From NCBI GenBank assembly GCA_012295275.1, contig CM022673.1:27776001-27840000 (forward strand): a stretch of DNA of 64,000 nt, read 5' to 3'. The translations under genes were made by a program, and so were the position numbers. The stretch comes from Chrysomallon squamiferum (lineage: Eukaryota > Animalia > Mollusca). A model generated the notes under the pieces. That model worked only from the letters and a program-made list of their open reading frames with translations. It was not told where the DNA came from and searched no databases. Shown here piece after piece: positions 31,602-37,600 of the stretch (the stretch's first letter is position 1; each line of letters opens with the position of its first letter).

Positions 31602-34600
31602 ATGTTTTTATCTACATTACAGATAGTTTTCTTCGTTGGTAAGTTCGTTAAATATTATATAATACAATCTCTGTCTCTCTGTCTCTCCCTGTCTCTGTCT
31701 CTTTCTCTGTCTCTCTCTGTGTCTCTCTCTCTCTCTCTCTCTCTCTCTCTCTCTCTCTCTCTCTCTCTCTCTCTCTCTCTCTGTCTATAATTATATATAT
31801 GTGTGTGTGGGTGGGTGTGTGTACATATGTGTGTTTGTATTTATATATACTCTCTCTCTCTCGATATATATTTTTAAGTGTATGTATATATGAATTTATA
31901 TATATACATATATATACTATTATTTATTTATTTATTTATTTGCTTACTTACGTATTTATTTCCTTACTTACTTAATTACTTACTTACTTATTTAGTTACA
32001 AATTTATTTATTTATTTTTTTACTTATTTATTTATTTCTTTACTTATTTACTTACTAACTTATTTATTTATTTACTTATTTAGCTTTTTTTTACATACTT
32101 ACTTATTTACTTATTTTTTTTACTTACTTATTTATTATTTATTTACTTACTTATTTACTTGTTTACCTACTTACTTAGTTACTTACTTATTTAGATATTT
32201 AGTTATATATTTATTTATTTATTTATTTATTTATTTATTTATTTATTTATTTGTAGGCTCCTTTGGTTTAAACTTCTTCCCCGTCTGCGGAACGCAGGTA
32301 ATGTATTCGTTCGGTTTGAATAGATAGTTACAAAATAACTGTAATAAGACTCTCTCTCTCTCTCTCTCTCTCTCTCTCTCTCTCTCTCTCTCTCTCTCTC
32401 TCTCTCTCTCTCTCTCTCTCTCTCTCTCTCTCTCTCTCTCTCTCTCTCTCTCTCTGTTAAACAAATATTCGCACCACATCCAGCTAAAGTAACAAATACC
32501 ACGTCATCTCAAAATACTTTTGAGTCAGTTAAGTAATAGCACACTGCGTATCAGATTTTGTTTTAAATTCATAGCAGTTACAGTAATGTATGAATCTAAA
32601 TCCTTTTTTCTCCTATCTGTATGGGAATCACAGATATCATCCTGCGCTGAGAAATTTAAAGTCATCGACGGTCATTCGGCATGTTTATCTGACAAGTTGG
32701 GTATGGTCTAATTTTTATTATTTCATATATTAGTGTTAACATACCGATTGTTTCTCGTATTATTATTTCCTTTTCACTCTAAGTTATCCCCACTTACACT
32801 CCACCTTCCTCCTTACATCTTCGCTGTTTCGCCCAGATCTGAATCAAGCTGTGTTTTTGAGTGTGCGAGTGTACATGTTTTCTAGATGTATATGTGTATG
32901 TATGTGTGTCTGTGTGTGCGTGCGCGTGTGTGAGTCTGTATATAAGCACATACAAACTTGTGGCGTGCAGAGGTCTGGTGATGCCCGGGGCCAACTCTTT
33001 GATTTTATGCTCCAAAGACTCAAGTCTAAGGCCTAGCACTGAGAAATATTATGAGAGAGGAAGGTATGTTGAATATGTAAACAGAGATGAAACATCAGTC
33101 AAACACTTCATTCGATCTACTTATAAAACAACCAAATTTATTAAATTCTTTTCTCTGATTGGATGCCACAAACCCCTCTGCATGCCATTGTTCAAGACAG
33201 GATCTTCAACAGATCGTTCAGCGCGCTTTCTGTCGTGCATCAGATTGTGGTTGCTATGGCTGATCAATCCAGAACTCGAGTCTCTCTCAGCAGATCAGTT
33301 AAATCTTCAGCGTCCTTCCTTGTTTCCACGTTTCTGGTTTCACTGGTGACTGAGCAGATCTGTTCGCACTGCAGACTGTCCTCCATCTTACTTCTGCGTG
33401 GACGCGTTTTTCTTTTCTTTCTCAGAGTTCTTTGATGTTGATTGGTGTTTACCTGTCTGTAACGATTATCTTCAGCCACTGATTTTGTACAGTTCTTTTA
33501 CAAATTCCATTCTTTAAGCAACAATCAGTGTCGTTTCTTTGGTAATTATTTGTTTATCTCTAACAAGAGGCGCAGACATTTAGAATTTCAACTGCAGCTG
33601 TTGAAGACAGACGTGTTTCCACATCGGCGTCTGAAATTCAAATGACAATTATTACTGTCGTCAAGCTACTTTAATCCAAATGAAATGACGTCACACAATG
33701 GATTTAGATTTTGCTTCGTTTCTCTTCGTAAAATTTGATTTGATAGATGCTATCCTCTTTCATACGATAAATTTAATAATAATAATAATAATAATAATAA
33801 TAATAATAATTCAAATTTTTCTTCCTCTTCTTCTGACTATATAACTACTACTGCTGCTACTATTACTACTAGTATTTTGCTGTCTATATATTTTCATTGC
33901 AGCTATGCTGTTTCAATGAATTATTATTATTATTATTATTATTATTATTATTATTATTATTATTAGTTTATATACATACATGTATCTAAAGTTCATTTAG
34001 CATTGTAACTTTACGATAATGTCCAAAAAGTGATAAATTTTATTGATATAAATAAACCGCAAATGATTTTTGGGAGAAGGACTGCGAATCTATTTCATTT
34101 TTTTATTTATTTATTTATTTATTTATTTATTCGATTGGTATAAATGTAATTGACTAGAATTATTATTATGAAAATCAAAGCTTTTAAAACGCTGATGGAA
34201 AAGTTTATTTTCTGTTTTACTTTTTTCATTACTGTCCTATCTTTTCTTTCTTCTTCTATTTCTTTCTTGTATTTATTTATTTATTTATTTATTTATTTAA
34301 ATATACAGAAACATTGCCTCAAAGTGAAATTGATCTGATTGTAAAAATGCACAATGATGTACGCTCACGAGTGATTCCAAGCGCTTCCTACATGTTACAA
34401 ATGGTAAGTCATCAAGATATAACGCTGTAATTTCTGATTCCTGTGCTTTCTATAGCATTGTTTTTCGTTTAAAAATGTTTATACTACTAGCGCTACACAA
34501 CAGTTACTACATCAGCTGCTATTGTTGTTGTTGTTGTTGTTGTTGCTAATTAGTTTTAAAATATAAAAATATCTGCATGGTGTGTTATTCTGAATGAATT

Positions 34601-37600
34601 TCTTTTTCAAAAACGAATATTTACTACTAATGCTACTACTCTTGCTACTACTACTACTACTCCTGCTGCTGGTACTACTACTAGTTGATACTACTTAAAC
34701 TTCTATTTACTACTCCAACTACTACTATTACTACTGCCACACTATTACTCCTACTACTGTTACTACTACTGCTACCACTGCTATTATTATTACTGTTATT
34801 ACTGTTGTTGTTTTACCAGCGTTATAGCTGATAATATATATCTATAAGAAATTATTAAATGTCACTAGATAAAATAATAATTTAAATTATCATCGTCATC
34901 ATCATTATTATTAATAGTTAATATTAGTACTATTGTTGTTGTTATAATAATAATAATAATAATAATAATAATAATATTATTATTATTATTATTATTATTA
35001 TTATTAATATTATTTGTATTATTATGATCATCATCATAGCATCATTAACATTATTAGTAGTAAGAACTGTAGTGGTAGTGTTCTTATTATTATTATCATT
35101 ATAATAATCATCATCATCATTATTATTATTTTTAGTGCTAATAGTAGAGTAGTTATGTTATTATTACATGTAATATCATAATCATCATCATCATCATCAT
35201 CATTAGTAGTATTCGTTGTAGTAGCAGCAGTATTTTTATTATTATTATTATATGTATTATTATTATCATCATTATTGTTAATATTATTTATTTATTTTAT
35301 TTAAAAAGACGTGGGATGCTGAACTTGCAATGATAGCTCAAAGATGGGCAGAATCCTGTTCTATGAAGCATGATGGCGGAATCCAAAGAATGATTCCAGG
35401 TAATATATTTATAGAAGTAATAAAATGCAAAACATTCTGGCTTCGGACAAGAAGATAAATAAATAAATAAATAAATAAATAAGAGAAAGAAGAAGAAGAA
35501 CAACAACAACAACATTCGAACGCTTTTCCATTCAGACTCGAGCCATTATGACAGAAAGATTATTGTATGTATTTACTGGTTATGCTGTGAAATAGCCAAA
35601 TAAAATCTGTTAAAATGGTTAGCGTTTATTTTTCAGGGAAATTCCTGGTGGGACAAAACATAGCCGTGGGTGAGAAGAGCTGGCAAACGGTAATAAGCAA
35701 TTGGGAAAGTGAGAAAAAAGATTTCCAGTTTGATAAACTGAACGATTTTAAAAATATACAACATTATCCAGCAGTAAGTATCAACAGAAATTATTATTTT
35801 TATATATATAAATAAATAAATTATATATATATATATAAAGCATAAAAATGTCATCTTACAAGCTAAATGAAATAAAATTATATACAAATACGTATTTACT
35901 AATACAAAAATAAAAATAATAAACATAAAGTTATATAAAATGATAATTATTATATAAATATGATCTACACATTTCAGATGGTCTGGGCTGATACAAATAA
36001 AATTGGATGTGGTTTTGCAAAGTGTTCACAGAACTTCCATGTATGCAATTATGGACCAGCGTATGTTTTATTTATTTATTTATTTATTTATTGTTGTTAT
36101 TGTTACTGTTAACCTACAGTGATTATCAGATACAATGGATAGGAATATTCAGTATCATATTTAATAGTAATAATAATAATAATAATAATAATAATAATAA
36201 TAATAATAAGAAGAAGAAGAAGAAGAAGAAGAAGAAGAAGAAGAAAAGAAAAAGAAGAAAAGAAGAAGAAGAGAACAAAAAGAAGAAGAATTAATTAAAA
36301 GATTGTTTTCAGTATCAGACTGTTTTAATTAACATTTATGCTGGGTGGTGCCTTAGGATAACGTTAATGCAGTGTGAATGCAAATTTTAAATAAGTATTT
36401 TACAATGATTTAAAAATACAGTAAAAACAAATTAAATAAATTAAAAAGAAAATTTGATACATATGGAAATGAATCAAATGTACTTTTATATTCCATTCAA
36501 ACGGATTTTTTTGTTCTTCTTTCTCTTTAATTATTTGAAGATATATATATATATATATATATATAACATTTTATTCATACTTCCTCTTTCGTTTAAAATG
36601 GTTAAACATACTTTTTGCTGATTTATGTATAAATGATATTGGGTTATTTGAAAGTTATATCGTTACTGTCTTATATTATTTTATTTCAATCAATTAATTT
36701 ACTGATAGTATGAGTGCATACGAAGGAGATCACAACAAGCCGTACACACAAGGAGCACCTTGCAGCAAGTGCCAAAAATGTATTGGAGGAAAGCTATGTG
36801 GTGAGTAGTAAAGACTCATCATTAAAGAAACGGCGAGTTCATTATTAAATAAAAAGGAATTTTTAAATTTCTTTTTGTTCTCTGGACTGTCAGGTTTATT
36901 TGTTTATTTATGTTTATTATTATTATTATTATTATTATTATTACTTTTTTTAATTTTTAAAAAAATGTTTTTATTATTATTATTATTGTTTTTGTTGTTG
37001 TTGTTCTCTGGTTTTATGTTGTTGTTTGTTTGTTTATTTGTTTTTAAAAAAGAGCTTCTGATAGGAGACGATATATCATGCACTGTTTTCCAAATGAAAT
37101 TAGCCCTGTTTATAGGACGATTATTATGCAGTTAAAAAACTGATAGTAAAAATCTTGCCTATTAAGAAAGCGAAGAGGATTTGGATTACGTAACTACAGG
37201 TCTACATAAAATGGCGTGATGTCATCTCATATTCTTGCTAAAGTACTAGTGATGAAAAAATCGTCTGTTTTTTGTTTGTTCGTTTTTTTTCCGAATTTTT
37301 GGAAAACAAGTATCAAGTATCTAATATTCAATATTAATTAACTAAAATTATTATCTGTTTATTTCATAAGATAAACTCAACAGCTCATTCAAGAATTGCT
37401 GAAGTCATATTTAAAATATTTCAGAGACATTCTAATCGAACTGTAGCGCAATTCTATGTTGAAACAATGAAAATGATCAGCGAAATCTTAATATTAATTA
37501 ATGATGATAATGATCCTGTTTTATTTTATTTATTATTTATCTATTTTTATTTTTTCTGTTTTAGATTGTGGACTGACCTGTTTAAATGGTGGGACACTAA

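What the first reader, a model, noticed from the sequence alone, without database searches (positions are those of the whole stretch)
34309..36800. CAP exons diverge faster than their introns between copies A and B
Seen (hand count): exon 4 differs at 9/32 residues ([18 protein letters not shown] vs IVRRHNEIRSKVGPSSSN) and exon 6 at ~13/46 ([22 protein letters not shown] vs VNAMNWKTVIHNWNNEKYDFMF), with few silent changes. The ~100 nt of intron before exon 6 differs at about one base, and the signal-peptide and ShKT exons are almost identical. Known: this pattern typifies conotoxins, snake toxins and gamete-recognition proteins. Inference: diversifying selection on the CAP surface.
Basis: partly seen in the sequence, partly recalled or inferred. 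Interest (0 to 1): 0.8.

Follow-up and report, generated by a model that had tools for sequence, protein, structure and literature searches.

The report
Snail surface-protein genes swapping exon patches
Two facing copies of what is likely a snail cell-surface protein gene differ about six times more in two exons than in the introns beside them, but silent changes are as common as protein-changing ones, so the pattern likely comes from DNA copying between gene copies, with selection probably keeping one outer face of the protein varied, rather than from toxin-style runaway evolution.

Summary
The core observation holds. Copies A (+) and B (-) form an inverted pair; exons 4 and 6 differ at 16-17% of bases against 2.3-2.9% in introns 3-6. 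Intron divergence is patchy (2-4% versus 12-14% in introns 7-8; upstream flanks 9-15%). Contigs from six public DNA runs show at least four exon-4 and five exon-6 versions; in exon 4 A groups with one outside version and B with another, while their introns group together. That points to gene conversion among copies. Selection is plausible but unproven: changes avoid conserved sites, cluster in the exons for helices 1 and 3, and lie on helix 3's outer face; a site test gives p 0.003 but 0.39 once exon-specific ages and double-base changes are allowed. The protein belongs to a lophotrochozoan CAP-EGF-ShK-like family with a GPI-type tail (closest: Gigantopelta aegis, 60%), so it is likely surface-anchored, not a secreted toxin. 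No expression data. A new case of a known opsin/MHC-type pattern.

The parts
31602..39561 (+). Copy A: 11 coding exons, open frame of 321 residues; signal peptide, CAP domain, EGF-like and six-cysteine ShK-like modules, hydrophobic tail. Exon structure is predicted from GT-AG sites, frame and protein homology; no RNA seen
31602..31638 (+). A exon 1 (signal peptide)
32257..32297 (+). A exon 2 (signal peptide end)
32634..32700 (+). A exon 3 (N-terminal two-cysteine segment of the family)
34309..34403 (+). A exon 4, encodes helix 1 of the CAP fold; divergence peak
35309..35399 (+). A exon 5, helix 2; weak Pfam CAP hit (E 0.008, below cut-off)
35637..35773 (+). A exon 6, strand plus helix 3 and the HY motif; divergence peak
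35978..36060 (+). A exon 7; Pfam CAP hit above cut-off (E 4e-5)
36709..36800 (+). A exon 8; 9 bases longer than in B, head rewritten, lacks the family's GN pair
37565..37666 (+). A exon 9 (EGF-like cysteine pattern; no Pfam hit)
38855..38965 (+). A exon 10 (six-cysteine ShK-like pattern; no Pfam hit)
39452..39561 (+). A exon 11: polar spacer and hydrophobic tail, likely GPI signal
47793..55409 (-). Copy B: same 11 exons (55409-55373, 54757-54717, 54482-54416, 52747-52653, 51838-51748, 51500-51365, 51168-51086, 50598-50516, 49755-49654, 48519-48409, 47902-47793)
52653..52747 (-). B exon 4; shares a four-site patch with an outside version V3
51365..51500 (-). B exon 6; one base short in a single-base run near its end as assembled; likely an assembly error
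32701..36415 (+). Low-divergence block (introns 3-6 and start of 7; 2.3-2.9% for introns 3-6): likely recently homogenised or recently copied
36416..37564 (+). High-divergence block (end of intron 7, exon 8, intron 8; 12-14%)
31404..42727 (+). Left arm of the inverted duplication (right arm 55607-45800; spacer about 3 kb; genes tail to tail)
45800..55607 (-). Right arm of the inverted duplication
62712..64000 (+). Copy C: upstream region, intact exon 1 (62835-62871) and intron 1, running off the window

Best explanation
A and B are two inverted copies in an expanded family of likely GPI-anchored CAP proteins of a snail, and their exons and introns likely have different histories because gene conversion copies DNA between family members, while selection probably keeps the outer face of helices 1 and 3 different. 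Shown: the inverted pair, the exon peaks, silent divergence as high as replacement divergence, patchy intron divergence, several exon versions in other samples, and an exon-4 patch that groups A and B with different outside versions. Inferred: conversion between the two arms resets introns 3-6 and 9 to near identity; exons keep old differences or receive short patches from other copies, whose introns have drifted away so that exchange is easiest in and near exons; such patches bring silent and replacement changes together, which gives dN/dS near 1. Inferred and weaker: selection favours variety at a binding surface, so the protein would work as a variable cell-surface recognition molecule. My guess for the partner: egg-coat binding on sperm as in ascidian Urabin 35%, microbe or symbiont recognition 30%, other 35%.
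For: dS equals or exceeds dN in the peaks and is itself above intron divergence (10 of 100 fourfold sites against 2.6 expected from introns 3-6, p 0.0004; against 5.3 from introns 2-10, p 0.045). Intron blocks are overdispersed (variance/mean 5.2, p 1e-27); upstream flanks differ by 9-15%, close to dS 0.12, while the 198 bases before the start codon differ by 2%. In exon 4, four neighbouring sites group A with V4 and B with V3, one site groups A with V3 and B with V4, none cleanly groups A with B; in the next intron A and B differ at 1 of 57 sites but A differs from V3 and V4 at 8-10%. One of the two purely silent A/B changes in exon 4 lies in that shared patch. An exon-6 version in run X1 shares 10 sites with A, keeps B's state at the others and has 3 of its own. 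Codons with two changes are in excess in exons 4+6 (12 against 5.3). For selection: differences avoid family-conserved sites (p 1e-4; replacement rate 0.02 in the conserved third), cluster in the helix 1 and 3 exons and on helix 3's outer face, and 6 of 36 exon-6 codons show three or more residues among six versions. Arms 3 kb apart in inverted order favour exchange (established knowledge). Helices 1 and 3 line the fatty-acid groove in other CAP proteins (PMC7773830, passages).
Against: No related species' copies were available, so the defining opsin-type test (introns group by species, exons by copy) was not run. V3 and V4 are short contigs whose loci are unknown; they are called other copies because all four runs hold both and their introns diverge. 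The exon-4 conflict rests on five informative sites. dN/dS is not above 1 in any average, the site test fades under richer models (p 0.003, then 0.06, 0.09 and 0.39) and is not significant on the population versions (p 0.12). Outer-face changes are also expected from plain drift. Both copies have lost the G and Q of the GHYTQ motif that are invariant in 41 of 41 relatives; A lacks the GN pair and B has W159S, which fits relaxed constraint. No RNA evidence either way.
Confidence: 0.55

Rival explanations
1. Conversion mosaic without selection for variety. The copies are redundant and partly relaxed; exon patches from older copies enter A or B by chance, and only the buried core is still conserved.
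For: dN/dS near 1 at non-conserved sites; minimum-event ratios 0.95 and 1.07 among population versions; loss of invariant motif residues in both copies; A's branch is longer than that of the Gigantopelta protein (0.75 against 0.41, quick tree); site test not robust; degenerate fragments nearby.
Against: A is open over 321 codons and B's only break is likely an error; the conserved third stays conserved; intron identity runs right up to exons 4 and 6 (0 of 60 and 0 of 34 sites beside exon 6), a sharp edge that chance tracts would not often give; changes concentrate in two exons.
Confidence: 0.25
2. One reading: a young duplication (about 2.6% old) followed by fast positive selection on the CAP surface, as described for snake venom and serum genes.
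For: Simple two-sequence M2a against M1a test p 0.003 with a class at dN/dS 4; in exon 4 the changes private to A or B are about 10 replacement and 0-1 silent (p 0.08-0.27); B has 7 private replacement changes where 0.9 are expected from intron distance (one of the 7 is absent from the population contigs).
Against: It does not explain silent divergence three to eight times the intron value, the patch shared with outside versions, or 12-14% introns inside the same pair. In the snake case read here the young pairs have KA/KS 1.5-1.7 with intron distances 0.05-0.065 (PMC6609765, passages); here it is 0.74.
Confidence: 0.15
3. Assembly or polishing artefact: introns of two similar copies were blended, or exon differences are errors.
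For: B's frame break, its codon-115 silent change and its three-codon exon-5 patch are not seen in any contig of the four runs laid there; no read spans a whole copy.
Against: A's exon 4 is matched exactly in X2, B-like exon 4 in X4 and X7, A-like exon 6 in X1, X4 and X6, B-like exon 6 in X4, X6 and X7, and A-type and B-type intron 4 each exactly in X4; the two arms differ by many indels.
Confidence: 0.05

Closest known systems
Human red/green opsin genes (Teshima-Innan divergence peaks), as reviewed in PMC3924837 section 3.2 (section read)
   Same: Neighbouring duplicates with near-identical introns and a sharp divergence peak on particular exons.
   Different: Here the pair is inverted, at least four exon versions exist and vary between samples, the functional sites are unknown, and the cross-species test is missing.
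MHC, plant self-incompatibility and R-gene clusters, where conversion among many copies makes new haplotypes (same section)
   Same: Patchwork exons, shared patches between copies, degenerate copies nearby, variation at a predicted binding face.
   Different: No ligand, expression or population-level balancing selection shown; unrelated fold.
Lophotrochozoan Mr30-like CAP proteins, closest XP-annotated 'kaouthin-2-like' protein of Gigantopelta aegis (P0055)
   Same: 60% identity over residues 30-287, sister in a quick tree (SH-aLRT 99), same CAP, EGF-like and six-cysteine modules; 37 of 45 relatives have a hydrophobic tail.
   Different: Only one Gigantopelta protein appeared among 27 hits, against several copies here; A and B have lost motif residues that the family keeps. 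The 'venom protein' names are automatic labels on oysters, mussels and snails.
Ascidian Urabin (HrUrabin, CiUrabin; PMC9265791, passages)
   Same: GPI-anchored CAP/CRISP-type protein of similar size on a cell surface.
   Different: Urabin is shown to be testis-specific and to bind the egg coat; neither is known here, and orthology was not tested.
Accelerated evolution of snake venom and small serum protein genes (PMC6609765, passages)
   Same: Exons more diverged than introns between young-looking copies.
   Different: Those pairs have KA/KS 1.5-1.7; here 0.74, with silent sites also raised. Snake CRISPs are secreted; this protein is likely anchored.

Membership tests
CAP superfamily (PF00188) | CAP domain sequence and alpha-beta-alpha fold | tested here: met
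   Exon 7 passes Pfam's cut-off; family profile matches 21 solved CAP sequences; model of the closest relative matches CAP structures. A itself was not folded.
CAP superfamily (PF00188) | Two-His, two-Glu cation-binding tetrad (not universal) | tested here: inconclusive
   H101, E136 and H153 are present; position 117 is Q in A, B and all relatives aligned. Which positions form the tetrad is recalled; the tetrad itself is described in PMC7773830.
Lophotrochozoan Mr30-like CAP-EGF-ShK family | N-terminal HxAC segment, GQN motif, EGF-like and six-cysteine modules, hydrophobic tail | tested here: met
Lophotrochozoan Mr30-like CAP-EGF-ShK family | Intact GHYTQ and PxGN motifs | tested here: not met
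   A reads QHYPA and lacks GN; B reads QHYSA; G, Q and G are invariant in 41 of 41 relatives. Depends on predicted splice sites.
ShK domain (PF01549) | Pfam match and six-cysteine spacing | tested here: inconclusive
   Six cysteines in exon 10; no Pfam hit at E up to 1; only a non-significant second match to the snake CRISP tail.
GPI-anchored proteins | Signal peptide, polar spacer and hydrophobic C-terminus; actual anchor attachment | tested here: inconclusive
   Layout present, tail hydropathy 2.35; no GPI predictor or experiment available.
Toxin-type accelerated evolution | dN/dS above 1 with dS close to intron divergence | tested here: not met
Toxin-type accelerated evolution | Secreted product of a venom gland | not testable with these tools
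   No RNA run was listed; the tail argues for anchoring.
Divergence peak under gene conversion (opsin type) | Sharp exon peak between homogeneous introns, silent sites raised too | tested here: met
Divergence peak under gene conversion (opsin type) | Introns group by species and exons by copy across species | not testable with these tools
   No related genome DNA. The within-species analogue (exon and intron groupings conflict) was seen on five sites.
Urabin-type gamete recognition proteins | Testis expression, sperm surface, binding to an egg-coat protein | not testable with these tools
   No expression or binding data.

The most novel reading that the evidence does not exclude
A snail lineage has turned a GPI-anchored CAP gene into a polymorphic recognition locus: several copies exchange exon patches, MHC-style, to vary the helix 1/helix 3 face, and individuals carry different versions that decide gamete compatibility or microbe and symbiont recognition.
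Probability: 0.13. Interest if true: 0.7.

Novelty: new member of a known kind. Interest (0 to 1): 0.35.

Why it matters
It is a clear warning that exons diverging faster than introns need not mean toxin-style positive selection: here silent sites move with the exons. It also gives a concrete candidate for a variable cell-surface recognition protein in a mollusc, in a widespread family that databases label as 'venom protein' but that mostly carries a membrane-anchor tail. Searches for CRISP + positive selection + gastropod + gene conversion + paralogs (one review listed), for peltospirid + cysteine-rich secretory protein (none of the 12 listed papers held both) and for Mr30/Tex31 (listing only) showed no description of such a locus; subscription journals are mostly outside this library.

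Tried and rejected
No whole genome is held for this window, so copy number and the loci of V3 and V4 are unknown. A word-based protein search with exon 6 found nothing. The run search gave no RNA holder listed; this says nothing about expression, and the exon model has no RNA support. Base composition does not explain the exon excess. A pseudogene reading of B from its frame break was rejected as likely assembly error, though one further, very diverged contig per run could not be read at that place. A hidden second gene or extra CAP exons were not found by tblastn. My own M1a/M2a site test looked positive and was set aside after controls; it is not codeml and ignores recombination. Contig depths hinted that one exon-4 version sits on two intron types in X7, but depth is no copy number, so I do not count it. 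The careful protein tree did not finish; only the quick tree is cited. Earlier-finding look-ups near this place and by words were empty. A paper search for sperm-membrane CAP proteins of oysters listed one unrelated paper.
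Full report
Anatomy. A self-comparison of the window after masking simple repeats shows an inverted duplication with arms at about 31404-42727 and 55607-45800, a spacer of about 3 kb, and further partial copies. Each arm holds an 11-exon gene. Copy A is open for 321 residues; copy B, as assembled, is one base short in exon 6. A third copy begins at the right edge of the window. The exon model rests on GT-AG sites, frame and homology; no RNA was seen. The protein has a signal peptide, a CAP domain (Pfam hit on exon 7), EGF-like and six-cysteine modules that Pfam did not name, and a polar spacer with a hydrophobic tail.

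Family. An exon-5 search (28 hits), name look-ups for 10 of them and a profile search (105 hits) place it among molluscan and other lophotrochozoan CAP proteins. Of 45 single-domain relatives aligned, the closest is a Gigantopelta aegis protein at 60%, the next at 47%; 37 of 45 have a hydrophobic tail. The host is therefore likely a snail. A model of the Gigantopelta protein (mean pLDDT 84) matches CAP structures and puts helix 1 in exon 4, helix 2 in exon 5 and helix 3 in exon 6. In other CAP proteins helices 1 and 3 form the fatty-acid groove (PMC7773830, passages).

The observation. Hand counts are right: 9 of 32 and 12 of 45 residues, and 96 identical bases before exon 6. Introns 3-6 differ at 58 of 2224 sites after removing microsatellites and columns near gaps; exons 4+6 differ at 37 of 231 bases, far above expectation. 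Seven codons were left out of all counts (B's break codon, six unalignable codons at the head of exon 8) together with the stop, and intron 1 was left out because it is largely unalignable.

Silent sites. Exons 4+6 have pS 0.20 and pN 0.15; the whole gene dS 0.116 and dN 0.086. Bootstrap intervals for dN/dS include 1 in every set (whole gene 0.46-1.30, exons 4-8 0.55-2.09, exons 4+6 0.37-1.71). Fourfold sites differ at 10 of 100, above introns 3-6 (p 0.0004) and marginally above all introns (p 0.045). One purely silent change (codon 115) is absent from all contigs laid on it; dropping it leaves pS at about 0.18.

Patchy introns. Blocks of 100 intron sites vary from 0 to 29 differences (46 blocks, dispersion 5.2, p 1e-27). 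Introns 7-8 differ at 12-14%, three upstream flank pieces at 9-15%, the 198 bases before the start codon at 2%, and the 3-prime flank moves from about 2% to about 9% with distance. A single duplication date cannot give this.

Other samples. Six of 22 listed runs, from three studies, were laid; all are DNA contigs or of unrecorded kind. On B's exons 5-7, 39 of the 40 substitution rows shown (of 60) lie in exons. All 8 listed contigs that span exon 6 lack B's one-base shortfall, including B-like ones with 3-4 other differences, so the break is likely an assembly error; B's W159S is matched by exact contigs in X1 and X4. Exon 6 appears as A-like, B-like, a mosaic in X1, another version in X7, and a version too diverged to align over 80 bases in all four runs. 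B's exon-5 patch was seen in none of the four runs, and intron 5 also has variant forms (8 differences and 3 gap letters in 93 bases in X1). On exon 4 there are four versions: A (exact in 1 of 4 runs), B-like (2 of 4), and V3 and V4 (4 of 4), the last two with their own intron 4. Four neighbouring exon sites group A with V4 and B with V3; one groups A with V3 and B with V4. A against B differs at 14 of 75 exon sites and 1 of 57 intron sites (p 0.002), whereas A against V3 or V4 differs about equally in exon and intron, 7-10%. Variant lists are complete for V3, V4, X1's mosaic and X7's B-like version; 2 of 22 and 1 of 3 differences are unseen for two other versions.

Selection. For: differences avoid conserved sites (p 1e-4); they cluster in exons 4 and 6 even among non-conserved sites (p 0.0004); the five on helix 3 lie opposite its conserved face (p 0.003), those on helix 1 only marginally (p 0.05-0.08); six exon-6 codons carry three or more residues. 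Against: minimum-event ratios are 0.95 and 1.07; my own M2a/M1a test gives p 0.003 for A against B but 0.06 with exon-specific ages, 0.09 with double-base changes and 0.39 with both; adjacent double changes are also in excess in introns (8 against 2.9); on the population versions p is 0.12. That double-base changes mislead such tests is recalled, not read here. Both copies have lost invariant motif residues.

Mechanism. The simplest account of all these results is exchange among copies. Conversion between the inverted arms would keep most introns alike; exons 4 and 6 would keep or import older variants, silent and replacement together. Selection against homogenising those exons gives the opsin pattern, and conversion among many copies gives the MHC pattern (PMC3924837, passages and section 3.2). 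The sharp edges of the peaks and their position on one predicted face make selection more likely than not, but relaxed constraint remains a serious rival. The likely GPI tail points to a surface role; Urabin, a GPI-anchored CRISP that binds the ascidian egg coat, is the nearest functional model (PMC9265791, passages), with no expression evidence here. No supplements were opened.

Verdict. A real feature, differently explained than proposed: a gene-conversion mosaic with probable, unproven diversifying selection. New member of a known kind; interest 0.35.

Noticed in passing
window 39567-41562 and 46870-47800: A 41-base minisatellite starts right at the stop codon of both copies (about 48 units in A, about 23 in B by length); in B one unit type includes the last codons and the stop itself.
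   Followed up: partly
window 36709-36730: A's exon 8 has a rewritten, 9-base-longer head and lacks the GN pair conserved in the family; it sits at the edge of a 200-base intron stretch absent from B.
   Followed up: partly
window 23258-27912: Degenerate partial copy: upstream region, intron-1-like DNA and an exon-2-like piece near 27830-27870, without exon 1 or later exons.
   Followed up: partly
window 41672-46800 and 57400-62700: A nest of further direct and inverted copies of the upstream and downstream flanks, 75-94% alike, filling the spacer and the region between B and C.
   Followed up: no
window 60000-64000: Copy C has an intact exon 1 and continues beyond the window; its intron 1 resembles B's (3% in one piece, 18% in another). 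It may be the source of V3 or V4.
   Followed up: partly
window 17817-21453 (+): Spliced gene with a VTT domain exon (Pfam E 3e-6, below cut-off), likely TMEM41B (name recalled).
   Followed up: partly
window 1969-4900 (+): Exon-like frames resembling L-gulonolactone oxidase (recalled from motifs).
   Followed up: no
window 9748-16074 (-): Exon-like frames resembling a tubulin polyglutamylase of the TTLL family (recalled from motifs).
   Followed up: no
window 58843-59150: A short frame that looks like a Tigger/pogo-type DNA transposon remnant (recalled).
   Followed up: no
proteins P0002, P0006, P0045, P0046: Relatives in Octopus vulgaris (six units) and Haliotis (about 630-650 residues; two units seen in P0006) carry the whole CAP-EGF-ShK-like unit repeated within one chain.
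   Followed up: no
window 21557-21875: A short tandem repeat in the likely 3-prime untranslated part of the VTT-domain gene.
   Followed up: no
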